64,000 nucleotides of DNA from an uncultured Candidatus Saccharibacteria bacterium (lineage in GTDB: Bacteria; Patescibacteriota; Minisyncoccia; Minisyncoccales; Staskawiczbacteraceae), in assembly GCA_964424305.1 (NCBI GenBank), contig CAYRHW010000003.1, forward strand, positions 4,895-68,894. The letters run 5' to 3'. Numbering within the stretch: position 1 is the first letter of the stretch; each line of letters opens with the position of its first letter. Below the pieces are notes generated by a model. It had not been told where the DNA came from. It searched no databases and saw nothing but the letters and a program-made list of their open reading frames with translations. Shown one piece after another: positions 7,311-48,228 of this stretch. Made by a program: the position numbers and the translations under genes.

Positions 7311-7670
7311 TTAAAGATGCTGCCACAGAGACAGCTCAATAATATTAATTCCCTGAATTTTTCTCTTGCCCTTTTTTCCAAGGCCCCTTACAAGCCTTTT
7401 GAACTCCAGATATTTTCTGTAATTGCAACTCGATAATTCACATCGCGTTACTCCCTCTTCGGGGAAGGTGTGAATAGCGAGATGGCTTTCAGCAAGAACC
7501 CAAACAGCAGTGTAACCCTGTGGTTTAAAGGGGACTCCGATGAAACCCTTTATTCTGAACTTACTTTGTCTCAAAATAGTCGTGAATCGTTTCTTCAACT
7601 CCCTTGCATCGACTTTGTCGATCCAGAAAAGGAAGTTATAAATCCTGGCCTTCATTTTTTTGGGCTTCAT
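7311..7670 (-). CDS. S-adenosylmethionine decarboxylase-like pyruvoyl enzyme proenzyme (SpeH/AdoMetDC class 1 family)
   Basis: VWVLAESHLAIHTFPEEG matches the self-cleavage/pyruvoyl motif (ES|H..IHT.PE). A strong SD (AGGAGGTG) lies upstream and a hairpin terminator at 7246-7273. Confidence 0.65.
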   Translation of the reverse strand: MKPKKMKARIYNFLFWIDKVDARELKKRFTTILRQSKFRIKGFIGVPFKPQGYTAVWVLAESHLAIHTFPEEGVTRCELSSCNYRKYLEFKRLVRGLGKKGKRKIQGINIIELSLWQHL

Positions 7671-9204: not shown

Positions 9205-9690
9205 TTACCACGACCCATTTGTGAACGACATGCCCCCATTTTCAAAATTCATTACTATTAATTGAAAAGTTTTTGCCGCTTTATCAACTGTAAACCAATA
9301 ACAATAATTGCTGTTTAGATTATTTATCGGATCGACTGGAACCGAGGACATATATACGTAATTATTTGAATTAATAGTTGGATACCCAGGCGGAGTCCCC
9401 TTTAGGAAAACCATAAACCCTCCCGTGCAGCTGAGATCAACGGTCCCGCCAACGCCGTAATCCCCACCCCCGTAATCTATCGGGGCAGGGAGAGAACCAT
9501 AATCTGCGATATACATTTGCAGTGCCTTATTTATACTATTCGCATCCATCTTCCTCACTGAATCTCTAGCACTCGCCCTAGCCTTCGAAACAGAAACCGC
9601 AATGATAGAAGATAAAATTCCGATAATAGCTATTACAACTAATAGTTCTATCAGAGTAAAACCTCTTTGTTCCCGGGTATTTTTAATCAT
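9205..9690 (-). CDS. Type IV pilin / pseudopilin (prepilin-type N-terminal cleavage/methylation domain)
   Basis: RGFTLIELLVVIAIIGILSSI is the class III signal peptide with the G|F cleavage site and Glu+5. Confidence 0.9.
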   Translation of the reverse strand: MIKNTREQRGFTLIELLVVIAIIGILSSIIAVSVSKARASARDSVRKMDANSINKALQMYIADYGSLPAPIDYGGGDYGVGGTVDLSCTGGFMVFLKGTPPGYPTINSNNYVYMSSVPVDPINNLNSNYCYWFTVDKAAKTFQLIVMNFENGGMSFTNGSW

Positions 9691-18919: not shown

Positions 18920-18997
18920 TGGCGCGGGTGACGGGATTTGAACCCGTGATCTGATCCGTGACAGGGATCCGAGGACTCCAGACTCCTCCACACCCGC
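18920..18997 (-). tRNA. tRNA-Asp (anticodon GTC), CCA encoded
   Basis: Hand-folded cloverleaf: acceptor GCGGGTG/CACCCGC, D stem GAGG/CCTC, anticodon arm GATCC-CTGTCAC-GGATC, T arm ACGGG-TTCAAAT-CCCGT, then GCCA. Confidence 0.9.
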
Positions 18998-19008
18998 ATA
19001 ACAATAAA

Positions 19009-19680
19009 TTAACTTATTTTAAAATATTTTTCAAATATTTTCTTCTTTCTATTAAGAAACAACCCACCCTCTAGGTTTCTATACATAAACCTATACAACT
19101 TTAAACTATCCTTTACTGAAAAATTTAGTCTGTATCCCCTACTATTATAATTTAATGCACCTCCGCTTATATTGGCCGACTCTTTAAGCCTAGTATGCAA
19201 ATTACCCAAAATTTTCTTACTCCCTGACACAAAACCAGAGATAATAACAAAACTTTTCCTATTATTTCTGTCAGCTCTTATATATTTACAAATCGTGACA
19301 CTACCATCCCCATCAAAGTATCCCCTTGTAAAATGCGACAAATATTGATTGGGTATCTTTGGCAGATTAACTATTTTACTCTTAGCTGGCGTTAAACCTA
19401 GCCCCATTAAATCGTAAAACATTTCTTTACTACCAATTTGTAAACGATATGCTGTTTTACACGGGAACTTTCTTTCCCTAACTGATATCTTATGGTTTGA
19501 GCATATAATCCTCCTAATTTTATATAATAAACCTTTGTCTGTTATCTCAATTTCTATAAAATGGGCTCCTCTTTCGTTCTTAGTCATACTCCCGTCGGCA
19601 GTAAAGAACCCTAACACATATGCCATCTCCGACGACCATTTTTTAAAAAAATCCTTGTTTTTTGTTTTAAAAATCGGCAT
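19009..19680 (-). CDS. LAGLIDADG homing endonuclease (two-motif, single-chain)
   Basis: Two LAGLIDADG motifs, YVLGFFTADGS and FTRGYFDGDGSV. The ORF fills the spacer between tRNA(CAT) and tRNA-Asp, with gaps of 2 nt and 11 nt. Confidence 0.85.
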   Translation of the reverse strand: MPIFKTKNKDFFKKWSSEMAYVLGFFTADGSMTKNERGAHFIEIEITDKGLLYKIRRIICSNHKISVRERKFPCKTAYRLQIGSKEMFYDLMGLGLTPAKSKIVNLPKIPNQYLSHFTRGYFDGDGSVTICKYIRADRNNRKSFVIISGFVSGSKKILGNLHTRLKESANISGGALNYNSRGYRLNFSVKDSLKLYRFMYRNLEGGLFLNRKKKIFEKYFKIS

Positions 19681-19682
19681 AG

Positions 19683-19755
19683 TGCCGGCGACAGGGATCG
19701 GACCTGTGACCTTGCGCTTATGAAACGCATGCTACTACCACTGAGCTACGCCGGC
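19683..19755 (-). tRNA. tRNA with CAT anticodon (elongator Met or Ile2 type), no encoded CCA
   Basis: Acceptor GCCGGCG/CGCCGGC, anticodon arm TGCGT-TTCATAA-GCGCA, T arm ACAGG-TCCGATC-CCTGT. Position 55 is C, which is unusual. Confidence 0.75.
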
Positions 19756-19762
19756 TTACTTG

Positions 19763-19833
19763 TTGCGCCGCCCCGAATTGCACGGGGGCCCACAGCTTAT
19801 GAGACTGTTGAGGTACTACTCCTCCACGGCGCT
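19763..19833 (-). tRNA. Atypical tRNA-like gene with CAT anticodon (possible initiator-like or degenerate tRNA)
   Basis: Acceptor AGCGCCG/CGGCGCA (A1 opposite A72), D stem GAGG/CCTC, anticodon arm ACAGT-CTCATAA-GCTGT, T arm CCCCG-TGCAATT-CGGGG with a non-canonical loop. Confidence 0.5.
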
Positions 19834-25600: not shown

Positions 25601-25950
25601 TCCTAGTAAGCTAGACGATCGCTCTTTTTTAAAGAGAGGAAAGTCCGAACACCATCTCCGCTTTCCGCGGGATAAAATTGTAGCGGCTAACGGCCGTCCA
25701 CAGCAATGTGCGAGGTGCGAACAGAAACGGCTATGATCGAAAGATCTGGCATTCCAGCAATGGAATACTTCTACAGTAATGTAGGAATGAAACGGCTAAA
25801 TCCTTACAGGGCGCAAGAGCAAAGCAGAAATTCAGGTTAAATACATCTTGAATATCTGTTAAAAGTAGTTCGCCAGAGCCAGCAAGTAATTGCTAGCCCA
25901 GACAGATGATCGTCCCAGACAGAATTCGGCTTATCGGCTTGCTAGGACAT
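25601..25950 (+). ncRNA. rnpB: RNase P RNA, bacterial type A
   Basis: Conserved GAGGAAAGTCCG (P4 5' strand) and ACAGAATTCGGCTTATCGG (P4 3' strand). P1 pairs TCCTAGTAAGC with GCTTGCTAGGA. Confidence 0.95.
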
Positions 25951-27854: not shown

Positions 27855-28325
27855 CTATTTGATAATCGTCGTGTTGGGTAGCGTAGACTGAATCTTATCT
27901 AGATCTTGCTGCGAATAGTTGTTCCCTGAGATATTAAAGGTTTCTAGTTGGGTCAAATTTCCTAACTCATTTGGAAGACCAGTAATTTTATTATTCGATA
28001 GATCTAAAATTCTCAATTTCCGCAACTGCCCTATTTCTGCTGGAACACCAGTGAAGTTACTTCCGCTGAGGTTGAGAACTTGTAAATTTTGAAGCTTCCT
28101 TACTTCGGCCGGTAAGGCCCCAGTGAAATTATTGCCAGACAAATTAAGCTCGACAAGATTCACTCGGCTGAAAATATCCATTGGCACCTGCGTCAATCCT
28201 TTGTTGCTAAGATCGAGAACATTCCCGCCACCCAAATTTTGCAAAGGCGTCTTCCCATTCAAAAAATATGCAAAACCAAAAACGACTATAGCGACAACGA
28301 TGAGTAATAATATAAATTTGTTCAT
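27855..28325 (-). CDS. Membrane-anchored leucine-rich repeat (LRR) protein
   Basis: N-terminal TM, then about 5 LRRs (L..L.L..N.ftG.lP.E...L..L). Confidence 0.85.
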   Translation of the reverse strand: MNKFILLLIVVAIVVFGFAYFLNGKTPLQNLGGGNVLDLSNKGLTQVPMDIFSRVNLVELNLSGNNFTGALPAEVRKLQNLQVLNLSGSNFTGVPAEIGQLRKLRILDLSNNKITGLPNELGNLTQLETFNISGNNYSQQDLDKIQSTLPNTTIIK

Positions 28326-31052: not shown

Positions 31053-32951
31053 TTAGAATTTTACCACTTCCCCCGGATTAATTACACCCCTTTTTGAGCC
31101 ATCATTGGAGACTTTCTCTGGGATTGGAACTGGCTCCTTCTCTACGACGGGGTTAGGGTTATTATTTATATTTTTCTTAGCAGGCTCTGGTTTATCATTT
31201 TCTTCGGCCAATGATTCTTTTATGGCCTTTCGCAGCTCCGAGACATCAACCTCTTTCCTCTTCACCTTATCTTTATCATGACTATCTCTGTGGGGAGAGA
31301 AAGAAACCACCTCCTGATGCATCGCTTCTCTCAAAGACACTGCCGGGGGTTTTATATCTTGCCTCACCTCCTGCTTTTCTACATGGGCTTCCGGACGAAC
31401 TTCAGACGTGATCTTTTCGGCAGTAGTAACTCCATCCTGCGGTTTCCCACTAGCAACAGGGGCCACTACTTCACTTCGAGGCTTCACTTTCTTCAAACAA
31501 TTTTTACAATATATTGGCCTACCCTTCTCTGGCTCAAAAATTACTTTAGTCTTCTTATTACACATGGAACAAACGGCATCGAAAAGATGCGATTGTTCCT
31601 GCCCCCCGAAGCCTCCCTGCATTACTGGCCTCGGTGTATTCCCCTGCGAAGTTGCAGATAATGTATGCTCTGCATTGTCTTCAAAGCCAGTCCAACGTTT
31701 TATCTTTTCCTCTACTATTTCTTTCCTTACTCCGTATCTCTCTCTACTTGCATTAATGATCTTTTCTCTGTTTGAAGTCTCTTCTGCTTTAATGGGAGGA
31801 AGGGTTTCTGCTGAAAACGGCCGGCCAGCAACTCCATCGATCATTAATTTTAAATATATATTGTATTTTGTAAGGCCAACCAAATCCGTGGCCATAAACT
31901 CTGGCTCAAATTCTCTTTCTAGAAAATCAGCATCCTCTGCACCAATTCTAAAAACCACCATTGTCCCCACATTACCAAATACTGCGTCCCTCACTTCCTC
32001 TTCCATTTGAGTGATATATTGATGTCCCAGCGTCAGGTTCAAACGATATTTTCTTGCCTCGGACAATATGGAGGCAAAGGATATAGTTGCAAAGTTCTGG
32101 AACTCATCGACGTAAAGATAGAAATCTTTTCTATCTTCTTCGGGGATATCAACCCGGGACATGGCGGCTAATTGCATTTTTGTAATTAACAAAGCTCCCA
32201 ATAATCTGGAATTATCCTCTCCGATCCTACCTTTCGATAGGTTGATTATTAATATCTTGCCCTCATCCATTATTTTCCTAATATCGAGAGTGGACTTTAC
32301 CTGCCCGATACTATTTCTGATCAAAGGATTGGAAACGAACTGCCCTACTTTATTCTGAATAGCGGCTGTTGCTTCAACCTCGTATTTCTGAGTATACCTG
32401 GCATATTCATTCACCCAGAAAGATTTAACAACTGGGTCAGTGATCTTTTCCACCACCTTTCCCCTATACTCTGGGTCAGCCAACATTCTGTTAACCCCAA
32501 GCAAAGTTGACTCTGGATATTCCAAAAGCGCCAAGATAGAGTTATTCAAAATATATTCCATACGGGCGGACCAAACATCAGGCCAAACTTTTTTGAAAAC
32601 AGCCATCAACCCACTAGCCACTAAATGCCTGAATCTGAAATCCACCTTTTCCATAACGTTAAAGGCGATTGGGAAATCAAGATCCGCTGGGTTGAAATAC
32701 ACAACATCATTTATTCTGCTAGAAGGAACGAAGTCCAACAAGCCCTCGGCAGCTTCTCCGTGGGGGTCGACGAATGCAATACCTCTTCCTTTTTGGATAT
32801 CCTGCCTGGCCATATTTTCCATTAGGACGGTTTTGCCCATACCAGTTTTCCCAATAACGTAAACGTGCCGACGTCTATCGTCGGGCTTTATACCAAATTT
32901 CTTCTCCTGGTTGCGAAAGGTTGTTTTCCCTAAAAATGTTATCTCTGCCAT
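31053..32951 (-). CDS. TraD/VirD4 (type IV coupling protein)-like P-loop ATPase with C-terminal zinc ribbon and low-complexity tail
   Basis: Walker A IGKTGMGKT and Walker B LYVDEFQNF. C-terminal CSMCNKKTKVIFEPEKGRPIYCKNC (CxxC...CxxC). Confidence 0.65.
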   Translation of the reverse strand: MAEITFLGKTTFRNQEKKFGIKPDDRRRHVYVIGKTGMGKTVLMENMARQDIQKGRGIAFVDPHGEAAEGLLDFVPSSRINDVVYFNPADLDFPIAFNVMEKVDFRFRHLVASGLMAVFKKVWPDVWSARMEYILNNSILALLEYPESTLLGVNRMLADPEYRGKVVEKITDPVVKSFWVNEYARYTQKYEVEATAAIQNKVGQFVSNPLIRNSIGQVKSTLDIRKIMDEGKILIINLSKGRIGEDNSRLLGALLITKMQLAAMSRVDIPEEDRKDFYLYVDEFQNFATISFASILSEARKYRLNLTLGHQYITQMEEEVRDAVFGNVGTMVVFRIGAEDADFLEREFEPEFMATDLVGLTKYNIYLKLMIDGVAGRPFSAETLPPIKAEETSNREKIINASRERYGVRKEIVEEKIKRWTGFEDNAEHTLSATSQGNTPRPVMQGGFGGQEQSHLFDAVCSMCNKKTKVIFEPEKGRPIYCKNCLKKVKPRSEVVAPVASGKPQDGVTTAEKITSEVRPEAHVEKQEVRQDIKPPAVSLREAMHQEVVSFSPHRDSHDKDKVKRKEVDVSELRKAIKESLAEENDKPEPAKKNINNNPNPVVEKEPVPIPEKVSNDGSKRGVINPGEVVKF

Positions 32952-39633: not shown

Positions 39634-39909
39634 CTATTCCAGCGAAATAACCTGCACCCCCTTCTCCTTAATTACATCCTCTTGACCAAAATCATTCAAT
39701 TTAAACTTTAAAATATACCCAACCTTTTTCTCTATACTTCTCCCTGTGTATTGTTTTGTTTTTGGATCCCATTCTTCAAGTATTAAAGTATCTCCCTCGT
39801 TAATCTCAAAATCTGCTACCCTTAATTCAAAGTTTTTCTTCCCAGAGGAAATCGCATTAAAATATTCTGGCCAAGTTTTCTTCTTAATTATTGCCATATT
39901 ATTTCCCAC
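39634..39909 (-). CDS. ASCH/DUF3850-like small protein
   Basis: KTWPEYFNAISSGKKNFELRVADF..GD.L.L.EW is an ASCH-type beta-barrel pattern. Confidence 0.6.
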   Translation of the reverse strand: MGNNMAIIKKKTWPEYFNAISSGKKNFELRVADFEINEGDTLILEEWDPKTKQYTGRSIEKKVGYILKFKLNDFGQEDVIKEKGVQVISLE

Positions 39910-42346
39910 AACATTTTTTATACTTCATCGGCTCTCCTGTCACGGGATTCTTTTTCCCACAGGGACACGGATCATTCCGTCCCGGCTCATCCTTATTTGC
40001 TACTGGAGCAACTACTTGAGCCGGCCTTTGTGATTGTGGCTTCAGCTCAGCTTTTAATATGTTATTTGCAATTGCATTTTCTGTTTCTTCTAACAATCTT
40101 TGAAACATCATTCTTCCTTCCTTTTTATATTCTATTAAAGGATCTTGCTGGCCGTAGGCTCTCAATTTTACAGAATCTCTTAGATAGTCCATGTCTTCTA
40201 GGTGCTCAATCCAGTAAGTATCTAAAACCTTAAGGCAAACAAACTTCGCTAGTTGATTCATATTGTCCGCTCCAACTTCTTTTTCTTTTTTATCATAATC
40301 TTCTTGAGTAAACCCAGCCTTCCCAATAACTTCTACGATATATTCTTTTAAAGTATTAGCAGCTGATCTCTCTAATACCTCTTTCCTTCTTTTGTAAAAC
40401 ACTTCTCTGTGTTTATTCATTACCTCGTCATAATCTAGAACGTGTTTTCTTGCATCGAAATTGAATCCTTCCACTTTTTCTTGGGCTCCCTCGATTGCCT
40501 TTGAAATCATCCCGGACTCAATGGCCTCATCTTCGGGCATGTTAAACATCTGCATTACCCCCTTTATCTTATCTCCACCAAAAACTCTCATTAAGTCATC
40601 TTCTAAAGAAACGAAAAACTGAGAAGACCCTGGATCTCCCTGTCTACCAGCTCTACCTCTAAGCTGGTTATCGATTCTTCTGGCCTCGTGCCTCTCTGTT
40701 CCAATAACATGCAGACCACCAGCTGTAATAACCTTCTTCTGTTCCTCTATATCTACTGGGATTCCTCCTAAGATAATATCCACTCCACGACCAGCCATAT
40801 TAGTAGCAATAGTTACCGCTCCAAACTTACCAGCTTGAGCAATAATTTCAGCTTCCTTTTCATGATTCTTAGCATTAAGTATTTTATAATCAACGCCCTC
40901 TCTCTCCAAAAACTTTCCAAGGAGTTCGTTCTTCTCGATCGAGACTGTGCCAACCAAAACTGGCTGACCATTTTTGTTCCTCTCTTTTATTTCCCGCACC
41001 ACCGCCCTAAACTTTCCCTCAATCGACTTATATATCCTATCGGGCAAATCTTTTCTTATCATTAACTTATTCGTTGGGATAGACTCAACATCTAATTTGT
41101 ATACCTTATCAAATTCTTCGGCCGAGGTTTGGGCGGTACCCGTCATTCCAGAAAGCTTTTTGTACATTCTAAAATAGTTCTGGAAAGTAATTGTTGCCCA
41201 AGTTTTGGATTCTTCCTGTACCTTCACCCCTTCCTTGGCTTCTATCGCTTGATGTAACCCAGCTGACCATCTTCGACCAGGCATCAATCTGCCGGTGAAT
41301 TCATCAACAATAATAATCTCGTTGTTTTTTACAACATAGTCCTTGTCTTTCTGGAATATTGTTTTTGCTTTCAAGGCCGACTCTAATTGATGGGTGGTTG
41401 ATATATCATTATCTATCCATGGGTCAAAGCCCAATTCCTTTATTACTACATTCTGACCAGCTTCGGTAAAAGTAGCTGCTTTTAACTTTTCGTCAACCTC
41501 ATAGTCCCTTGTTTCTTCAAGTTTGGTTGCTAGCTTTGCAAAAGTATAATACTTATCCGTAGATTCTCCTCCGGGAGAAGAAATGATCAAGGGGGTTCTT
41601 GCTTCATCGATTAAGATGGAATCAATTTCATCAACAATGGCGTAATTGTGGCCGCGCTGCGATTCTTGTTCTAGGCCATATACCATATTGTCTTTTAAAT
41701 AGTCGAATCCATATTCGTTATTGGTTCCGTAGGTTATGTCAGCAGCATAGGCCTCTTTTCTAGTAACTGGCCTTAGAAAATCTTCGAATACCTTAAAGCT
41801 ACCTAAAATATCTCTGGCCTTATCTTCTGTGGCCTGGGCCTGTTTGTAGTTTGGATCGTAAAGAAAGGATTGTTCGTGCCCGATACATCCCACGGTCAAG
41901 CCAAGGAAGCTATAGATCTGCCCCATCCAGACAGCATCTCTTCTCGATAGATAATCATTAACCGTTACAATGTGTACCCCTTCGCCAGGCAAGGCATTCA
42001 AATACGCCGATAGTGCTGAAGTTAAAGTTTTACCTTCTCCCGTCTTCATTTCAGACAACTTTCCTTGGTGTAGAACAACGGCACCAATTAACTGAACATC
42101 AAATGGTCTTTGTTTTAATGTTCTTCTGGCCGCTTCTCGAGCCACTGCAAAGGCCTCTGGCAATATATCATCCAAAGTTTTCCCTTCAGTTAATAATTTT
42201 CTAAATTCTTCTGTCTTCTTATTGAAGTTTTCATCGGCCTCCTTCTTTAACCCTTCTTCAAAAGAATTAATTTTATCAACTACCGGCGATAAAGATTGTA
42301 TATATCTTTGGTGAGAACCACCAAAGATGCCTCCTAGGAATGACAT
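39899..42346 (-). CDS. secA: Preprotein translocase ATPase SecA
   Basis: MKTGEGKTL, DEIDSILIDEARTPLIIS and TNMAGRGVDI. C-terminal zinc site CPCGKK...KKCCGK. Confidence 0.97.
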   Translation of the reverse strand: MSFLGGIFGGSHQRYIQSLSPVVDKINSFEEGLKKEADENFNKKTEEFRKLLTEGKTLDDILPEAFAVAREAARRTLKQRPFDVQLIGAVVLHQGKLSEMKTGEGKTLTSALSAYLNALPGEGVHIVTVNDYLSRRDAVWMGQIYSFLGLTVGCIGHEQSFLYDPNYKQAQATEDKARDILGSFKVFEDFLRPVTRKEAYAADITYGTNNEYGFDYLKDNMVYGLEQESQRGHNYAIVDEIDSILIDEARTPLIISSPGGESTDKYYTFAKLATKLEETRDYEVDEKLKAATFTEAGQNVVIKELGFDPWIDNDISTTHQLESALKAKTIFQKDKDYVVKNNEIIIVDEFTGRLMPGRRWSAGLHQAIEAKEGVKVQEESKTWATITFQNYFRMYKKLSGMTGTAQTSAEEFDKVYKLDVESIPTNKLMIRKDLPDRIYKSIEGKFRAVVREIKERNKNGQPVLVGTVSIEKNELLGKFLEREGVDYKILNAKNHEKEAEIIAQAGKFGAVTIATNMAGRGVDIILGGIPVDIEEQKKVITAGGLHVIGTERHEARRIDNQLRGRAGRQGDPGSSQFFVSLEDDLMRVFGGDKIKGVMQMFNMPEDEAIESGMISKAIEGAQEKVEGFNFDARKHVLDYDEVMNKHREVFYKRRKEVLERSAANTLKEYIVEVIGKAGFTQEDYDKKEKEVGADNMNQLAKFVCLKVLDTYWIEHLEDMDYLRDSVKLRAYGQQDPLIEYKKEGRMMFQRLLEETENAIANNILKAELKPQSQRPAQVVAPVANKDEPGRNDPCPCGKKNPVTGEPMKYKKCCGK

Positions 42347-42446: not shown

Positions 42447-45089
42447 TTAATCTCTCCTAAACCCCTGTATCATCCTGGCGATGCCAAGGAGGACAAGGAT
42501 AATGATTATGATGATGAGGAATAAGTATAAAGGGTTGGAGAGGTTGAGACCGAGTAATCCGGCTAAACCTTGCTGTGGCACAAAGACTGTACCACCATTA
42601 TTGTTGTTGGTATCAGTTCTGTTCAAAATGACCGTGGCTGTGTCCTGAGAAGAACCAGCAGAAGTAGTAACTGTGGCTAGGGTGCTAGCTTCATTGCCGA
42701 ATATGGAGTTGTTTTCTACTACCTGAGCTTTGTAGGTTATGGTTCTAGTAGACTTTGGAGCTAAAGATCCTAGGGTTATCCCTGCTCTAACATCTCCTGA
42801 ATAATCATTACCATCTAACTTTAAACCTCCTTTGTATAATACTTCTGAAGGTAAGTTGGCTTTTACGAAAACATCATTCATTGTGGTGTCTAAACCATTG
42901 CTGACAACCAATAGATAGTCTAGGTTCTGACTGGCATTGGCTGAAAAGGATTTTGTCCATTGGACAGGATCATTCTCTCTCTTTCCAAAGATAGTGACAG
43001 CTAAACCGATTACATTACAATCTTGAGCACAGGATTGGATTGTTTCACCTTCACTACAGGTTCCATCTCCACAAACAGTACATTGAGATATATATTCTGG
43101 AGATCCTTTGGCACAGGTGGTGCCATCACATTTAAGTAAGTTGGTACAAGTGGTTCCATTACAGGAATCGAAGGTACAAGTATTACTGTCTTGGCAAGAT
43201 CTGTATAGGTTTAATCTGACATTGGTTGAACCACTAAACCAGTAGATATCATTGTTGTAACAACCTCTGTAGTTTGTAGACACTGGTGGGATTACTGGTG
43301 GGATGTATGTAGTCACGCAATAACCACCCTGGCAAGTTTGGTTAGATAAACATGTTTGGATTAAACCTTGCCTGGTGTTGTAGGTATCAAACCAGTAAAC
43401 ACTGTTGTTGTAGCAACCTCTGTGATCGTTGTAGTTAATTGTGTTTACACAGTAACCATTCTGACATGTTTGGTTGTAGGCACAGGTTTGAACAAGCTGG
43501 GCATTGTTGTTCCCGGTATTGTAACAAGCACCGTTAGAACAGCCTCCATTAGAATAACCCTGGCGGTAAACACTGTTACCTATGCAGTAGTTGGCTCCAT
43601 TATTGTAATTGTTGTTGGTACAAGTTTGAAATAATTCTTGTCTAACACCAGCCGAGTTGTACCAGTAGACATTGTTATCATAGCACTGAGTGTATGAATG
43701 GTTTATGGTTGAATCAACACAAGCTCCATTCTGACAAGTCTGGTCATAGGTACAATCTTGGTAGATGTCGTTTCTGGTATTGTTTGAGTCAAACCAGTAA
43801 ACATCGTTGTTGTAGCATGCTTTGTGATCATGATTTAAAATCATATTCACACAGACTCCGTTTTCACAGTTCTGGTTAACAGTACAATCTTGGTACAAAT
43901 CATTCCTAGTATTGCTTGAACTAAACCAGTAAACATCGTTGTTGTAGCATGCTCTGTGGTCGTGATTGATGGTAATGTCTATGCACTCGCCATTAACACA
44001 GTTCTGGTTAACAGTACAATCTTGGTACAAATCATTCCTAGTATTGCTTGAACTAAACCAGTAAACATCGTTGTTGTAGCATGCTCTGTGGTCGTGATTG
44101 ATAACATTGGTCACACACTCGCCGTTAACACAGGTTTGGTTGGCAGTACAATCTTGGTATAGATCATTTCTTGTGTTGGTGGAACTAAACCAGTAGACAT
44201 CGTTGTTGTAGCATGCTCTGTGGTCGTGGTTGATGGTAATGTCTATGCACTCGCCATTAACACAGTTCTGGTTAACAGTACAATCTTGGTACAAATCATT
44301 CCTAGTATTGCTTGAACTAAACCAGTAAACATCGTTGTTGTAGCATGCTCTGTGGTCGTGATTGATAACATTGGTCACACACTCGCCGTTAACACAGGTT
44401 TGGTTGGCAGTACAATCTTGGTATAGATCATTTCTTGTGTTGGTGGAACTAAACCAGTAGACATCGTCATTGTAACAAGCTCGGTGGTCGTGGTTGATAA
44501 TTGGCTGGGTGATGGCGTAAAAGATCTTCATCTTATCCTCGTTTACACTGGTTGTACTACAAAGTGTCCCCGAGCTTCCACTCCAAGTGAATTGATCATT
44601 CCCAGGATTACTGCCCCTATCATTTCCCTCGATGACACCACAGGTCCCACTCGGATCCTCATAGTTTATATTCTGGATATTCGTGATCGAAGCATTGGAA
44701 AAACTAAAACTTGCCCTCACGGTTTCCCTGGTGCTTTCGCCACCAAATCCATATGCCGTGATTTGGACATACCCATTCTTCCTTATCACATGTAAACCAG
44801 CGACATTATCAGTTGAATCACCGTCAATTACTGCCGATCCATTAACAACCAAGGGGATGGAAACGCTTCCTGTTCCGAAGACAGCTGAGTCGGTCCCTAC
44901 AAAAATATTATTACTCATATTTGGAATATGGGAAGCGCTAGTCGGGGAATAGTTACCGGTATAATTTACGGTAAGAGTAAGCGAAACATCCCCAGCGGTA
45001 GCAGAGACTACTCCAGGGGTCGATAATGTTATTAGAATAACTGACACCATGAAAATGAAAACGCATTTACTTTTTATTTTTGTGATCAT
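42447..45089 (-). CDS. Large secreted, C-terminally anchored surface protein with about 9 Cys-rich 44-aa tandem modules
   Basis: Signal peptide, then repeats of INHDHRACYNNDVYWFSS.NTRNDLYQDCT.NQ.C.NGEC. A beta-rich domain and a C-terminal TM plus basic tail (LGIARMIQGFRRD) follow. Confidence 0.85.
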   Translation of the reverse strand: MITKIKSKCVFIFMVSVILITLSTPGVVSATAGDVSLTLTVNYTGNYSPTSASHIPNMSNNIFVGTDSAVFGTGSVSIPLVVNGSAVIDGDSTDNVAGLHVIRKNGYVQITAYGFGGESTRETVRASFSFSNASITNIQNINYEDPSGTCGVIEGNDRGSNPGNDQFTWSGSSGTLCSTTSVNEDKMKIFYAITQPIINHDHRACYNDDVYWFSSTNTRNDLYQDCTANQTCVNGECVTNVINHDHRACYNNDVYWFSSSNTRNDLYQDCTVNQNCVNGECIDITINHDHRACYNNDVYWFSSTNTRNDLYQDCTANQTCVNGECVTNVINHDHRACYNNDVYWFSSSNTRNDLYQDCTVNQNCVNGECIDITINHDHRACYNNDVYWFSSSNTRNDLYQDCTVNQNCENGVCVNMILNHDHKACYNNDVYWFDSNNTRNDIYQDCTYDQTCQNGACVDSTINHSYTQCYDNNVYWYNSAGVRQELFQTCTNNNYNNGANYCIGNSVYRQGYSNGGCSNGACYNTGNNNAQLVQTCAYNQTCQNGYCVNTINYNDHRGCYNNSVYWFDTYNTRQGLIQTCLSNQTCQGGYCVTTYIPPVIPPVSTNYRGCYNNDIYWFSGSTNVRLNLYRSCQDSNTCTFDSCNGTTCTNLLKCDGTTCAKGSPEYISQCTVCGDGTCSEGETIQSCAQDCNVIGLAVTIFGKRENDPVQWTKSFSANASQNLDYLLVVSNGLDTTMNDVFVKANLPSEVLYKGGLKLDGNDYSGDVRAGITLGSLAPKSTRTITYKAQVVENNSIFGNEASTLATVTTSAGSSQDTATVILNRTDTNNNNGGTVFVPQQGLAGLLGLNLSNPLYLFLIIIIIILVLLGIARMIQGFRRD
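43250..44505 (-). repeat. Coding tandem repeat, 132-nt period (about 9 units; the five units at 43789-44448 are near-identical)
   Basis: The unit landmark CTAAACCAGTA recurs at 43921, 44053, 44185, 44317 and 44449. The units at 43921 and 44185 differ at 2 of 132 nt, and 44053 and 44317 look identical, giving a 264-nt super-repeat. Confidence 0.9.
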
Positions 45090-45306: not shown

Positions 45307-45693
45307 CTAGATAACCTGTGCTTTCATTCTCTTCTTTTTTAGCTCTCTTCTCTTCGCCTCAATCATCTTGGCCTTATACTTTTTCATCTCCTGCTGCATC
45401 TCATCTTTAACTTCGACGATGGCTGATCTCAAATCCTCATTATTAGCAGCTGCTACAATAGTTTTACCAGGCAAACTTATTTTCACCTCAGCTTTAAAGT
45501 ATGGTCCCTTTCTATGATGCTTTGTCTCTTTCTCTATCTCCACGAAGAAATCACAGGTTGATTTTACCCTCTCCCATTCATCATCCCTATGGCAGGATTG
45601 CACAAATTTCTGAAGACCTCCGATCTTCTCATTAATAAACTCTTCAATTGCTGGTGTTAACTCGATTATCTTTGTCTTTATTATTATTTTCAT
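45307..45693 (-). CDS. hpf: Ribosome hibernation-promoting factor / RaiA family (short form)
   Basis: MKIIIKTKIIELTPAIEEFINEKIGGLQKF is the S30EA/YfiA N-terminal pattern. Terminator at 45270-45297. Confidence 0.75.
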   Translation of the reverse strand: MKIIIKTKIIELTPAIEEFINEKIGGLQKFVQSCHRDDEWERVKSTCDFFVEIEKETKHHRKGPYFKAEVKISLPGKTIVAAANNEDLRSAIVEVKDEMQQEMKKYKAKMIEAKRRELKKKRMKAQVI

Positions 45694-46637
45694 AGGTGTT
45701 GTACCTCTTCTTCTAATTTAATATTAAATTTAGCTTTTACCTTTTGTTTAACTACTTTAATTAATTTTACCACATCTTCTGCTTTAGCTCCTCCGGTGTT
45801 AATTATAAAATTGGCGTGCTTCTCCGAAACCTGCGCCCCTCCGATCTTCTTCCCCTTTACCCCAGCCTTATCTATTAAATACGAGGTCGGTATTCTGCTA
45901 CCCTTGTTGAACTCATTAAGCTCGGGGTATTTCTTTAGTAAATTCTTATTGGTTATTTTCTTTGTATAGTTTTTAAAGATACATCCAGCCGAAGGAAAAC
46001 TTAATGGATGATTTGCTTTTCTGTAATCGCCGAATCTTTTTACTTCTTGAGTGATTACATTCTTCTCTCCGGGCTTCACTTCTAATACTACAGACAGAAT
46101 GATTAAGTCCTTATTAACTTTAAAAATACTATGCTTATTATTAAACCTACAATCTTTTTGAGAAAGGGTTTTTATCTTTAGACTTCTAATATCTAATACT
46201 CTTACGCTTTTGATGTTATTGGCCATTGTTGAGCCAAAAGCCCCTACATTACCATAAACCGCTGCCCCGACGCTCCCAGGTATCCCCTCAGCCCATTCTA
46301 GGCCAGTTAGAACGCTATCTGTGGCTAGTTTGACTACTGTTCTTAGAGAAACACCGGCATCAGCAATAATACTTCTATTATTAATTTTAATACCATTGTT
46401 CCCCATTTTTATAATCATCCCCTTATATCCCTTGTCTGAAACCAATAGATTGCTTCCTTCGCCCATGATAAAAAAAGGCAACCTAAGTTGCTTAGCTACT
46501 TTAATGGATTTTACTAATTGCTCTGGTGTTTTTGCCGTGAAGAAATACTTAGCCCTTCCCCCTATTTTAAAGGTTGTGCGATCGGCTATTGATACATTCT
46601 CTTTTATTCCAGATAACATTTTTCTAATATCTATCAT
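45690..46637 (-). CDS. murB: UDP-N-acetylenolpyruvoylglucosamine reductase
   Basis: FAD-binding TTFKIGGRAKYF and GEGSNLL. The C-terminal SAGCIFKN and GGAQVSEKHANFIIN are MurB motifs. Confidence 0.9.
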   Translation of the reverse strand: MIDIRKMLSGIKENVSIADRTTFKIGGRAKYFFTAKTPEQLVKSIKVAKQLRLPFFIMGEGSNLLVSDKGYKGMIIKMGNNGIKINNRSIIADAGVSLRTVVKLATDSVLTGLEWAEGIPGSVGAAVYGNVGAFGSTMANNIKSVRVLDIRSLKIKTLSQKDCRFNNKHSIFKVNKDLIILSVVLEVKPGEKNVITQEVKRFGDYRKANHPLSFPSAGCIFKNYTKKITNKNLLKKYPELNEFNKGSRIPTSYLIDKAGVKGKKIGGAQVSEKHANFIINTGGAKAEDVVKLIKVVKQKVKAKFNIKLEEEVQHL

Positions 46638-46641
46638 AGCT

Positions 46642-48228
46642 TCATTTTGCCAATAACAGATTCAACTGAGCCCTTGTCCCATTGCCAACAAAACCCGTAA
46701 CAGCTATGGGGTAACCGGCTGTCTGAGAAATTTGGGATCTGTATTTATTCTGGAAACATTTTACTGCCGCCAGGGTCTGAACCCCAAAATAGTTTGTATT
46801 TGCAACACCGGACAAACATCCTTCGGATGCCAACATATATTTTAAATAAATGACGTCTTGAGTTTTTGCTCCAAAGGCTAAGTTTCTTACAAGACTAAAT
46901 CCCGCCGGAATACTATTAGACGTTACCGTTTGTCCCGTGCCCGAAGCAGAAACAGTAAAGGTAAAAGAACGAGATGGTTCGTTGTCTCCAAAATCTGACG
47001 TCTTAGCCTGGGTAGACGGCATAATAATTAAAGCCGTATTCTCAGTACCAAAATTTTGAACACTTATTTCTCCCCTTGAATTAACTAAATTCAAGAAATT
47101 CACAGTATAGCTTCCATTGTTTTTTTGTACTAAATAGGGAATTTTAAAACTGGTACCACTATTACTTGAAAAAGAAAGCTTAACGCTTCCCTTGCCTCCA
47201 ATTATTTTAAACCAATTCCCCGCCCAATCTTTCGTTATATCTGTAACGCTTAAAATACTTTGCCCCGACAGTGGAAGAAAATTAATTTTTGGATAAACAT
47301 GCAAATCCTTGAGATTGTTATTTAGATAACAATAACTTGCACCAAAATTACAATCATTAATATAAACGGCAATCATCCAATCAGTAAAAATTTGCGCAAA
47401 ATTTTTAATTGATCCCTCTTTATTCAAAGCATAATTAATACTCTCTATCCCAACCTTTGAATTTCGCAAGGAATCAACCAAAACTTCTTTCCCATAATAA
47501 TCAACCAAATATTGGGTAAAAAGACTTACAACTCCATAATCAGCTTTCGACCCCTTCCAATCGGTAATTGAGTCAAATGGCTCATCTGAAAAAACCTGTG
47601 CCCTATTTTGGAGATAACTTCCAGAAAAAATATTATCATATCCCAAAAGAGTGGGCGCATACTCTGCCCTCGCTTCGTTAAGCCAAGTATCTTCTTCGGC
47701 ACCATAAATTTTATTCTTTTGATTAAAAGTAACTAAATGAGTAAATTCATGTGCCAGAAAGCTCGGGGCATTCGTGTCTTTCAGTCTCGCAGCACTTAAA
47801 TACACCATCTCTCTTTCGTTGGACCCAGGAACCTGCAATTTAGTGTATTCATCATTTGAACGAAAATAACCACCAGCGTCTTTCGCCATAGAATGTATGA
47901 GGATAGTAACCTTGATGTCTTTATCTATCCCTGGAGTCCACTCCGAACCATAACTAGCTACAAGGCCGGGATAGATCTTGTTATCAAACTCATCCCCCAG
48001 CAATCCTAGTGCTGCAGAAATCTCGTTTTGAGGAGCAAAATTCCACCAACTCTCATCAACATAAAAATATGCTTTTGAGCTAATTTTTAATAAAACAGCA
48101 TCTACAGTATTTCTCTTACTTGCATCATAACTAGAATCTACGTAAAAATTTCTTTTTTCGCCTAAATTATCTGCGCTTACCAATAATGGGAAGAAAATAA
48201 GGCAAACAACAATAACAATTTTTTTCAT
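46642..48228 (-). CDS. Secreted zinc metalloprotease-like protein with C-terminal peptidoglycan-binding domain
   Basis: Signal peptide and HExxH (LAHEFTHLV). C-terminal PG_binding_1-like DVIYLKYMLASEGCL...FGVQTLAAVKCFQ. Confidence 0.65.
   Translation of the reverse strand: MKKIVIVVCLIFFPLLVSADNLGEKRNFYVDSSYDASKRNTVDAVLLKISSKAYFYVDESWWNFAPQNEISAALGLLGDEFDNKIYPGLVASYGSEWTPGIDKDIKVTILIHSMAKDAGGYFRSNDEYTKLQVPGSNEREMVYLSAARLKDTNAPSFLAHEFTHLVTFNQKNKIYGAEEDTWLNEARAEYAPTLLGYDNIFSGSYLQNRAQVFSDEPFDSITDWKGSKADYGVVSLFTQYLVDYYGKEVLVDSLRNSKVGIESINYALNKEGSIKNFAQIFTDWMIAVYINDCNFGASYCYLNNNLKDLHVYPKINFLPLSGQSILSVTDITKDWAGNWFKIIGGKGSVKLSFSSNSGTSFKIPYLVQKNNGSYTVNFLNLVNSRGEISVQNFGTENTALIIMPSTQAKTSDFGDNEPSRSFTFTVSASGTGQTVTSNSIPAGFSLVRNLAFGAKTQDVIYLKYMLASEGCLSGVANTNYFGVQTLAAVKCFQNKYRSQISQTAGYPIAVTGFVGNGTRAQLNLLLAK

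What the first reader, a model, noticed from the sequence alone, without database searches (positions are those of the whole stretch)
42447..45089. 880-aa surface protein built from a novel-looking 4-Cys 44-aa module, with a near-perfect 264-nt DNA duplication
Seen: after a signal peptide and a beta-rich N-domain there are about 9 tandem modules, (I/L)NHDHRACYNNDVYWFSS.NTRNDLYQDCT.NQ.C.NGEC. Each carries 4 Cys, presumably forming two disulfides. Degenerate modules follow, then a Cys-rich linker, a beta-sandwich-like domain and a C-terminal TM with a basic tail. At the DNA level, units alternate between A and B variants. The A-B pair 43921-44184 is repeated at 44185-44448 with only 2 differences that I can find, implying very recent duplication or ongoing gene conversion. 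Inference: this is an adhesin-like, rapidly evolving host- or partner-interaction protein. Repeat number may be variable in the population and may be collapsed or expanded by assembly.
Basis: partly seen in the sequence, partly recalled or inferred. Interest (0 to 1): 0.55.

Follow-up and report, generated by a model that had tools for sequence, protein, structure and literature searches.

The report
Cysteine-rich repeat surface protein of CPR bacterium
This gene encodes a membrane-anchored cell-surface protein of an ultra-small (Patescibacteria/CPR) bacterium whose stalk consists of a 44-residue, probably disulfide-bonded beta module that is common in CPR bacteria and DPANN archaea but absent from the domain and structure databases searched; the stalk's repeat number differs between two assemblies of the same population.

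Summary
ORF 42447-45089 (-) encodes 880 aa: signal peptide, orphan beta-sandwich head, nine Cys-rich modules, Cys-knot linker, DUF11-like domain and a C-terminal TM helix with an RRD tail. The 264-nt blocks 43921-44184 and 44185-44448 differ at exactly 2 positions.

The 44-aa module has invariant C8/C29/C35/C40 and near-invariant Y14-W15. It matches nothing significant in Pfam-A, NCBIfam, PDB sequences or PDB/BFVD folds. AlphaFold2 nevertheless folds it at pLDDT 94 into five beta strands. It is not rare: 2,024 protein clusters carry it, with up to 26 copies per protein. Named carriers include CPR bacteria, DPANN archaea and Omnitrophota, and partner domains vary widely.

The gene sits in a conserved MurB-HPF-[X]-SecA slot. 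In related genomes X keeps the C-terminal ~500 aa, but its head is LamG or PKD and its array differs.

A second assembly of an almost identical population encodes a 792-aa version that lacks exactly one 264-nt period. This is either real copy-number variation or a k=141 assembly collapse.

Best reading: a stalk of variable length presents a swappable head. An adhesin role is plausible but untested.

The parts
42447..45089 (-). Whole gene, 880 aa plus stop codon. It is a positional orthologue of P0002 and P0008 in the MurB-HPF-[X]-SecA slot.
45000..45089 (-). Sec-type signal peptide, aa 1-30: Lys-rich n-region, hydrophobic core, then VSA|TA.
   Evidence: Read directly from the translation. The cleavage site is inferred, not predicted with a tool.
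44502..44999 (-). N-terminal head domain, aa 31-196. All-beta, 2 conserved Cys, conserved DSTDNV.GLH..RK.GYV motif. It is an orphan domain with about 5 known homologues.
   Evidence: homologues P0049, P0048, P0050, P0022, P0240. AF2 gives all-beta with pLDDT 41-84. There is no significant PDB sequence or fold match.
43707..44498 (-). Six canonical 44-aa (132-nt) NHDH-type modules, units 1-6: A, B, A', B, B/divergent, divergent. This is the lineage-specific expanded part of the array.
   Evidence: AF2 pLDDT is 93-97.
43921..44448 (.). The tandem 264-nt duplication, 43921-44184 and 44185-44448, with 2 differences. The perfect 238-nt core is 43966-44203 = 44230-44467. One period is absent from the alternative assembly L001/P0001.
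43437..43706 (-). Composite ~90-aa module, aa 462-551. A module whose second half is interrupted by a nested hairpin unit. It is conserved in orthologues P0002, P0003 and P0004.
43305..43436 (-). Canonical module of NYNDHRGC type, aa 552-595. It is single here and triplicated in orthologue P0002.
43146..43283 (-). Terminal variant module, aa 603-648, whose tail is C.D.N.CT.DSC (Dicty_CTDC-like).
43014..43145 (-). Cys-rich linker, aa 649-692, with 7 Cys: CDG.TC..GS..Y...C..CGDG.C...E....C..DC. It is conserved in 49 homologues.
42585..43013 (-). Membrane-proximal beta-sandwich domain, DUF11-like (PF01345 / TIGR01451 type), aa 693-835.
   Evidence: the window fragment scores E=8.9e-4 and 20 bits, below the 24.6-bit cut-off, while 17 of 19 aligned homologues hit. 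Precomputed PF01345 hits are listed.
42450..42530 (-). C-terminal TM helix, aa 854-871, and a short basic cytoplasmic tail RMIQGFRRD. It is preceded by the conserved [QE]G[FWL]LAGLLG.N motif.
   Evidence: Read directly. No LPXTG motif is present, and NCBIfam finds no CTERM sorting-signal model.

Best explanation
The gene encodes a Sec-exported type I membrane protein on the surface of a Patescibacteria (CPR) cell.

A constant base is kept across positional orthologues. It consists of the C-terminal TM helix with its basic tail, a DUF11-like beta-sandwich, a Cys-knot linker, a terminal variant module, one canonical module and one composite module.

On top of the base sits a variable part. Here it is a run of six near-identical 44-aa modules and an orphan beta-sandwich head. 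Each module is a five-stranded mini-domain, probably held by two disulfides formed by four invariant Cys. The connectivity is unknown.

The modules act as a protease- and denaturation-resistant spacer that holds the head away from the membrane. The head is the specificity-determining, ligand-binding part, and it is exchanged between lineages: LamG in one orthologue, PKD in another.

Stalk length changes in steps of 132 or 264 nt by unequal recombination or slippage between near-identical units. Gene conversion keeps the units alike.

Shown: the architecture, the module family and its breadth, the confident fold, the synteny with N-terminal replacement, and the mosaic of perfectly identical DNA. 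Inferred: disulfide formation, the stalk role, binding by the head, and any host-interaction function.
For: Architecture:
- Signal peptide, TM helix and basic tail are read directly from the translation.
- The DUF11-like domain is supported.

Module:
- In 103 diverse copies, C8, C29, C35 and C40 are invariant and Y14 and W15 exceed 90%.
- AF2 gives pLDDT 94.3 with five beta strands, and pLDDT 93-97 in a three-module context.

Generic-spacer behaviour:
- The module is found in 2,024 representative proteins at E<=1e-3 and 791 at E<=1e-10, with up to 26 copies per protein.
- Its partners are unrelated extracellular domains: PKD, LamG, CAP, trypsin, peptidase M23, FGE-sulfatase, Lcl_C, CARDB, alpha/beta hydrolases, FG-GAP, PD40 and CBM96.

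Constant base and variable top:
- The MurB-HPF-[X]-SecA slot is conserved in three other genomes.
- SecA is 83% and 72% identical. X aligns only over its C-terminal ~500 aa, at 60% and 34% identity.
- P0002 has amplified a different unit three times.

Array dynamics:
- There is a 238-nt perfect repeat and a 106-nt segment present three times. A and B units nevertheless differ at 14 synonymous codons.
- An alternative assembly lacks exactly one period.

Disulfide capacity:
- CPR genomes are reported to be enriched in MdbA-like oxidoreductase and VKOR (bioRxiv 10.1101/335083).
Against: - No experiment bears on this protein, and no binding partner is known.
- The head model is only moderately confident (pLDDT 41-84) and has no significant fold match; the best is E=0.3.
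- Inter-module geometry is not confidently predicted (pTM 0.50), so a rigid rod is not shown.
- No DsbA/MdbA or VKOR gene appears in the gene tables examined, which cover roughly window 1-55 kb.
- The near-invariant Y14-W15 pair could equally be a ligand-binding site, which would make the modules more than a spacer.
- The only copy-number difference seen is between two assemblies of a near-identical population and could be technical.
Confidence: 0.55

Rival explanations
1. The modules themselves are the functional binding units. In this reading the array is a multivalent lectin-like or cell-wall-binding device, analogous to choline-binding / CW_binding_1 repeats and clostridial CROPs, and the conserved aromatic pair Y14-W15 contacts the ligand. 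Copy number would then tune avidity rather than reach.
For: - Y14 and W15 are over 90% conserved. They are neighbours on one beta strand, so they cannot both face the same side (the geometry is inference).
- The local motif VYW[YF]DS.G resembles the WYYFD..G hairpin of choline-binding repeats (own knowledge).
- The top Foldseek hits, though insignificant, are CROPs, LytA/LytC/Pce and glucansucrase glucan-binding repeats.
- One of 103 modules hits PF01473 at E=0.003.
Against: - All those matches are far from significant: Foldseek E>=2 and TM<=0.42, and 102 of 103 modules give no PF01473 hit at E<=0.1.
- Choline-binding repeats have no disulfides and are about 20 aa long.
- The module co-occurs with many domains that are binding or catalytic in their own right, which is typical of spacers.
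Confidence: 0.2
2. The 264-nt duplication, or its absence in the other assembly, is an assembly artefact, so the true copy number is not what the window shows. The array may hold one, two or more A-B pairs and be fixed in the population.
For: - Apart from the indel, the window and ENA contig k141_378670 share all but 12 positions over about 55 kb. They therefore probably represent one population, possibly one dataset.
- The perfect repeat is 238 nt, longer than the k=141 in that contig's name (behaviour of de Bruijn assemblers is established knowledge).
- No third assembly of the gene was found.
Against: - The two copies in the window are distinguished by two fixed differences 33 nt apart. This argues that at least two copies really exist.
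- Assemblers collapse tandem repeats far more often than they invent them.
- Mosaic identity is present whatever the pair count, for example the 106-nt segment found three times.
- An independent three-fold amplification of another unit occurs in orthologue P0002.
Confidence: 0.3
3. The protein is a structural envelope component, for example an S-layer-associated or wall-spanning strut, with no partner-specific binding role. Its head and array vary through relaxed constraint or phage and predator evasion rather than host recognition.
For: - DUF11-type domains are typical of archaeal and monoderm envelope proteins (Pfam description and own knowledge).
- The gene lies among housekeeping and envelope genes: SecA, MurB, MurJ and polysaccharide synthesis genes.
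- The gene shows no SNPs between the two assemblies apart from the indel.
Against: - Replacement of the head by LamG and PKD domains in positional orthologues. These are typical ligand-binding modules (own knowledge), which suits a recognition function better than a strut.
- The protein has a single TM anchor and no known S-layer motifs.
Confidence: 0.15
4. The Cys and His residues (the NHDH motif plus four Cys per unit) bind metal ions. The array would then be an extracellular metal-binding or redox protein.
For: - Six units begin with NHDH, and His at module position 3 occurs in 47% of family members.
- Four invariant Cys per unit.
- Some relatives carry MopE-type metal-binding motifs (PF11617) elsewhere in the protein.
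Against: - The Cys spacing C-x20-C-x5-C-x4-C has no CxxC knuckles, unlike zinc ribbons (own knowledge).
- The second His is not conserved in the family.
- AF2 folds the module confidently as a compact beta unit without a ligand.
- The protein is exported, which favours disulfides.
Confidence: 0.07

Closest known systems
DUF11 / TIGR01451 'conserved repeat domain' surface proteins (Pfam PF01345)
   Same: The membrane-proximal domain (aa ~716-818) is of this type. 17 of 19 aligned homologues hit PF01345, and many relatives carry precomputed PF01345 hits. The overall logic is the same: an exported, anchored, multi-domain envelope protein.
   Different: The window's own domain scores below Pfam's cut-off, 20 against 24.6 bits. 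DUF11 occurs once here rather than as the repeating unit. The repeating unit is an unrelated 44-aa Cys module.
Small disulfide-rich extracellular tandem modules: EGF-like, EB module (PF01683), Dumpy DPY module (PF21164), Dictyostelium CTDC repeat (PF00526)
   Same: These are tandem arrays of ~25-45-aa modules held by disulfides that build extended extracellular stalks. The C-terminal hairpin C-x5-C-x-NG-x-C gives weak hits to EB and DPY. The terminal variant module and linker resemble Dicty_CTDC: 3 of 19 homologues hit at up to 3e-4, and 2 of 77 family members at 4.5e-32.
   Different: No canonical module reaches any Pfam gathering score. The N-terminal three-stranded part with its YW motif has no counterpart in those families. 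There is no significant PDB fold match. The known families are largely eukaryotic (own knowledge), whereas this one is seen mainly in CPR bacteria and DPANN archaea.
Choline-binding / cell-wall-binding repeats (PF01473) and clostridial toxin CROPs
   Same: Both are repeated beta-hairpin units with conserved aromatic residues and an acidic-Ser/Gly turn. These proteins are the top-ranked, though insignificant, Foldseek hits.
   Different: Those repeats are ~20 aa, have no cysteines and form a solenoid. The statistics do not support homology: E>=2, TM<=0.42, and 1 hit among 103 modules.
Repeat-stalk adhesins of Gram-positive bacteria with near-identical DNA repeats and copy-number variation, such as Rib/alpha C protein and SasG/Aap (own knowledge, not tested here)
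   Same: The design matches: signal peptide, N-terminal binding head, a stalk of tandem domains encoded by near-identical DNA, and a C-terminal anchor. Repeat number changes by recombination.
   Different: The stalk modules have a different fold. They are disulfide-stapled rather than Ig-like or G5-E. The anchor is a TM helix rather than an LPXTG/sortase signal. The organism is an uncultured CPR bacterium.

Membership tests
Unnamed CPR/DPANN 44-aa Cys-rich beta module family (defined here by alignment A2) | Four invariant Cys with spacing C-x20-C-x5-C-x4-C, plus the [VIL]-Y-W-[YF] strand after the first Cys. | tested here: met
   All canonical units in the window carry it. The family alignment has C8, C29, C35 and C40 invariant and Y14 and W15 above 90%. 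Window units score 54-67 bits against the family HMM.
Unnamed CPR/DPANN 44-aa Cys-rich beta module family (defined here by alignment A2) | A fifth Cys in the DSCG turn (position 19), often with a sixth at the unit's end. | tested here: not met
   C19 is present in 53% of 324 distinct family modules, but every unit in the window has S, N, T or Y there. The window carries the 4-Cys variant.
DUF11 (PF01345) | Score at or above the Pfam gathering threshold of 24.6 bits. | tested here: inconclusive
   The window fragment scores 20 bits, E=8.9e-4, over aa 716-818. 17 of 19 aligned orthologous fragments hit, best 4e-7.
Dictyostelium CTDC repeat (PF00526) | Profile match to the C.D.N.CT.D.C repeat. 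| tested here: inconclusive
   The window protein has no hit at E<=1. 3 of 19 orthologous C-terminal fragments hit at up to 3e-4. The motif SCQDSNTCTFDSC is visible by eye at aa 631-643.
Choline-binding / CW_binding_1 repeat (PF01473) | Profile match and a beta-hairpin solenoid fold. | tested here: not met
   1 of 103 modules hits at E=0.003, and the window protein does not hit. Foldseek to CROPs, LytA and LytC gives E>=2 and TM<=0.42.
EGF-like / EB / DPY modules | Profile match over the whole module. | tested here: not met
   Only sub-threshold hits to the last ~15 residues: EB in 8 of 103 modules with best E 0.0068, and DPY in 3 of 103 with best E 0.0088. Fibrillin scores E=1.1 against PDB sequences.
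Sortase (LPXTG) or exosortase/archaeosortase CTERM-sorted proteins | A sorting motif immediately upstream of the C-terminal hydrophobic segment and basic tail. | tested here: not met
   There is no LPXTG motif. The window has VPQQG, but the Pro is not conserved in orthologues (P0003 has VVQQG, P0004 has KSEG), as read. NCBIfam finds no CTERM sorting-domain model.
Sec-exported type I membrane protein | An N-terminal signal peptide and a single C-terminal TM helix with a positive-inside tail. | tested here: met
   Read directly from the sequence: MITKIKSKCVFIFMVSVILITLSTPGVVSA|TA, and LYLFLIIIIIILVLLGIA followed by RMIQGFRRD. No dedicated predictor was available.

The most novel reading that the evidence does not exclude
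The 44-aa module is a structurally new, disulfide-stapled beta domain that belongs to the shared surface toolkit of ultra-small episymbionts: CPR bacteria, DPANN archaea and Omnitrophota. It would have been exchanged across the two domains of life. In proteins such as this one it would form a length-tunable stalk at a hypervariable, syntenic 'contact protein' locus. Head swapping and repeat-number changes at that locus would set host range and reach across the host envelope.
Probability: 0.25. Interest if true: 0.65.

Novelty: new variant of a known kind. Interest (0 to 1): 0.45.

Why it matters
How CPR bacteria and DPANN archaea attach to and recognise their hosts is largely unknown, and most of their large surface proteins carry no annotation.

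This work defines a compact, confidently folding and widespread module that can be used to find and classify such proteins. At least 2,024 clusters at 50% identity carry it, and it is absent from Pfam, NCBIfam and the PDB.

It also identifies a concrete syntenic locus, between the hibernation factor gene and secA, where the exposed part of the protein is replaced between related genomes while the anchor is kept.

That gives experimentalists a defined candidate for host-contact studies. It gives domain curators a new family to build. It also warns that short-read assemblies mis-count the repeats in these genes.

Tried and rejected
- Homologues of the head domain. A single-sequence search returned nothing. 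A 3-sequence profile returned only one new protein, P0240. Neither search re-found the known relatives, so this tool's word filter is limiting. A local BLAST of the head against 130 module-rich representatives also found none.
It was replaced by a degenerate DNA pattern scan.
- Alignment A5 (head plus modules) was discarded. MAFFT had pulled the second half of the head homologues onto the modules. Alignment A8 was rebuilt with longer rows after a local check.
- Other assemblies of this gene, sought in order to count repeats. There is no exact gene record for the 880-aa product. An exact 38-mer scan and a degenerate HDHRACYN[ND]DVYWF scan of JGI metagenome contigs both gave 0 hits.
- Viral origin or sharing. 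The motif has 0 hits in IMG/VR, and there is no significant BFVD fold match.
- Apparent SNPs between the window and L001. The 35 mismatches reported are BLAST over-extension into the repeat. All 42 positions flagged across the two over-extended alignments lie at 44028-44229, so this was rejected as evidence of strain divergence.
- Sortase signal and lipoprotein signal. Both were rejected on reading the sequence.
- Literature. No paper in the library contains the motif strings. Four keyword searches found no description of the module.
It was repeated on 77 proteins.
Full report
**1. The observation**

The minus-strand ORF 42447..45089 encodes 880 aa. It lies between secA (39899-42346) and a ribosome hibernation factor gene followed by murB (45307-46637). 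The window has 38% G+C, nearly all long ORFs lie on one strand, and its gene set includes MurJ, a type IV pilin, SecDF and polysaccharide synthesis genes.

Window 43921-44184 and 44185-44448 differ at two positions only, 43932 and 43965. The perfectly identical core is 238 nt, 43966-44203 = 44230-44467. A 106-nt stretch is present three times with no difference. TRF sees periods of 132, 264 and 396 nt.

In the reading frame there are six 44-aa units. Units 2 and 4 are identical in DNA, and units 1 and 3 differ at 5 nt. A-type and B-type units differ at 23-28 nt, many of them synonymous. So A and B are old relative to the duplication of the A-B pair, and the mosaic of perfect blocks points to recent unequal recombination or gene conversion.

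A module HMM finds 10 matches in this gene and none elsewhere in the window.

**2. Anatomy of the protein**

Read from the sequence:
- aa 1-30: a Sec-type signal peptide ending VSA|TA.
- aa 31-196: a beta-rich head.
- aa 198-461: six canonical modules.
- aa 462-551: a ~90-aa composite module.
- aa 552-595: one more canonical module.
- A short Pro-rich hinge.
- aa 603-648: a terminal variant module.
- aa 649-692: a 7-Cys linker.
- aa 693-835: a beta domain.
- aa 854-871: a TM helix, followed by the tail RMIQGFRRD.

The beta domain is DUF11-like. The window fragment scores just below Pfam's cut-off, at 20 against 24.6 bits, but 17 of 19 aligned homologues hit PF01345. There is no LPXTG motif, and no known CTERM sorting signal was found.

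**3. The module**

Neither the whole protein nor 103 diverse module copies reach the threshold of any Pfam-A family. NCBIfam has nothing for this protein or for nine module-rich relatives. A module profile finds nothing in PDB sequences.

With the 103-sequence alignment A2, AlphaFold2 gives mean pLDDT 94.3 and five beta strands at residues 5-9, 12-16, 22-27, 33-36 and 39-42. The modules again score 93-97 in a three-module construct.

Foldseek finds no significant match in the PDB (best E=2, TM<=0.42) or in BFVD. The top, insignificant PDB hits are beta-hairpin repeat proteins: CROPs, choline-binding repeats and glucan-binding repeats. This is a lead on how the module might work, not evidence of membership.

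The family signature is xxH....C.(n)N(d)VYW[YF]DS(C)G......Q.C.....C.NG.C. C8, C29, C35 and C40 are invariant, and Y14 and W15 are above 90%. Most family members have a fifth Cys in the DSCG turn, so the window's units are a 4-Cys variant.

I could not retrieve the model coordinates. The two-disulfide reading and its connectivity therefore remain inferences.

**4. Breadth**

An exhaustive HMMER search of 1.84 billion representative proteins finds the module in 2,024 proteins at E<=1e-3, 791 at E<=1e-10 and 164 at E<=1e-30. One protein carries up to 26 copies.

Named carriers are Patescibacteria (Staskawiczbacteria, Paceibacterota, Nealsonbacteria), a Woesearchaeota archaeon and an Omnitrophota bacterium.

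A DNA scan of GTDB species representatives for the single motif variant NDVYW[YF]DSCG hit 16 loci. These came from Saccharibacteria, Parcubacteria, Woesearchaeota, Pacearchaeota, Nanoarchaeota, Aenigmatarchaeota, Omnitrophota, a Myxococcota MAG and several MAGs named only as bacterium or archaeon. The module HMM confirmed 13 of the 16. There were no hits in IMG/VR.

Partner domains are diverse and extracellular: DUF11, PKD, LamG, CAP+MopE, trypsin, peptidase M23, FGE-sulfatase, Lcl_C, CARDB, lipase-type hydrolases, FG-GAP, PD40, CBM96 and PEGA. This pattern fits a general-purpose extracellular spacer or scaffold module.

No paper in the searchable library contains the motif or describes the module.

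**5. The locus**

In three other genomes the gene between the hibernation factor and secA is a relative of this protein. These are GCA_964395515.1, GCA_018896955.1 and GCA_018895235.1. The relatives are P0002 (990 aa, LamG head) and P0008 (916 aa, PKD heads).

The neighbouring genes are 53-83% identical to the window's: SecA 83% and 72%, MurB 73% and 59%, and the adjacent 528-aa protein 71% and 69%. The surface protein aligns only over its C-terminal ~500 aa, at 60% and 34%. The first ~370 aa have no counterpart.

P0002 has independently triplicated the NYNDHRGC-type unit, which is single in the window. The window's head domain has its few relatives in Staskawiczbacteria-type proteins at a different locus.

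The result is a constant anchor with an exchangeable exposed part. Fast-evolving surface proteins have been reported in other episymbionts: Nanoarchaeota show higher non-synonymous SNP density in putative surface proteins (PMC6142677).

**6. Copy number**

The 880-aa protein is on record from an NCBI assembly, on a 95,953-bp contig. A 792-aa protein, P0001, comes from ENA contig k141_378670 and also from JGI. It is identical except that it lacks 88 aa. At DNA level it lacks one 264-nt period, with the junction anywhere inside the 238-nt perfect core.

Outside the repeat, the two assemblies differ at only 12 positions in about 55 kb. Eleven of these cluster at 7371-7482. The apparent mismatches are alignment over-extension into the repeat.

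The two assemblies therefore represent essentially one population. The difference is either within-population copy-number heterogeneity or a collapse of a repeat longer than the k=141 in the ENA contig's name.

The two fixed differences between the copies in the window argue that at least two pairs exist. The true number could be higher. No third assembly was found.

**7. The head domain**

Only about five homologues exist. AF2 gives an all-beta model of moderate confidence, pLDDT 41-84. The best PDB fold hits are accessory beta-sandwich domains of a GH98 xylanase and a chondroitin lyase, at E=0.3-1, which is not significant. The profile finds nothing in PDB sequences. Its function is open.

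**8. Interpretation**

The best-supported model is a Sec-exported, TM-anchored surface protein. A conserved base (DUF11-like domain, Cys linker and proximal modules) carries a stalk of probably disulfide-stapled modules. The stalk's length changes by recombination, and it presents a lineage-specific head.

Disulfide formation outside the cell is plausible in CPR bacteria, because they are reported to be enriched in MdbA-like oxidoreductases and VKOR (bioRxiv 10.1101/335083). No such gene appears in the gene tables examined for this window, which cover roughly 1-55 kb.

Four rival readings remain open:
- The modules themselves bind a ligand through the conserved Tyr-Trp pair.
- The copy-number difference is purely technical.
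- The protein is a structural envelope strut.
- The Cys and His residues bind metal.

**9. Verdict**

The finding is real and the description accurate. The module is an unannotated but widespread domain family, not a one-off. Its fold has no detectable solved relative.

The protein belongs to a familiar kind: a modular repeat surface protein with a variable number of repeats. It is built from a new module and sits at a locus with head replacement. The adhesin or host-interaction role is reasonable but unproven.

Noticed in passing
window 7371-7482 (within ORF 7311-7670, minus strand): Eleven of the 12 real differences between the window and the ENA assembly of the same population cluster in 112 nt, and 10 of the 11 are transitions. 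They fall in the C-terminal half of a 119-aa ORF whose sequence (..VWVLAESHLAIHTFPEEG..) looks like a small S-adenosylmethionine-decarboxylase-type proenzyme. The rest of ~55 kb has a single difference. This may be a local recombination or conversion patch, or a polymorphic hotspot.
   Followed up: partly
window 46642-48228 (minus strand): A 528-aa secreted protein sits next to murB. It has no Pfam hit on record but is conserved in synteny at 69-71% identity in three related genomes. Its C-terminal ~60 aa read like a peptidoglycan-binding (PG_binding_1-type) repeat; this is by eye only.
   Followed up: no
P0022, P0049, P0240 (relatives that share the head domain): In these proteins the head is followed by a second, different Cys module of ~65 aa: C...SDCG.NG..G..FC...G.VY......C.N.GT..S.C.......Q..Q.C...Q.C.NG.C. 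It ends with the same Q.C-x5-C-x-NG-x-C hairpin as the 44-aa module. This suggests a wider superfamily built on that terminal hairpin.
   Followed up: no
family members: Four of 77 module-rich proteins carry FGE-sulfatase (PF03781) or Lcl_C (PF07603) domains. These are the C-type-lectin-fold domains that diversity-generating retroelements usually target (own knowledge). The gene tables for window ~1-55 kb show only an RNase H/RVT_3 protein and no DGR-type reverse transcriptase, and this protein lacks such a domain.
   Followed up: no
window 19009-19680 (minus strand), next to tRNA-Met genes at 19682-19755 and 19762-19833: A 223-aa ORF with a faint LAGLIDADG_3 hit lies directly beside two tandem tRNA-Met genes. 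tRNA-Asp is at 18920-18997, and bacterial RNase P RNA is at 25603-25949.
   Followed up: no
L020 14695-17940 (ENA contig, just beyond the window's low-coordinate end): The gyrB gene of this organism carries an intein: a 1,081-aa product with a PF14890 Intein_splicing hit.
   Followed up: no
window 27855-28325 and neighbours: A small leucine-rich-repeat protein (156 aa) and a SET-domain protein (135 aa) sit between housekeeping genes. A DUF87/TraG-like ATPase (632 aa, 31053-32951) and a type IV pilin (9205-9690) are also present. All are possible cell-contact machinery.
   Followed up: no
tool behaviour: The word-indexed homologue search failed to return proteins that local BLAST shows share the head domain at 45% identity (P0049, P0022), and it did not return the query's own protein. 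'No hit' from that tool is therefore weak evidence for short queries.
   Followed up: yes
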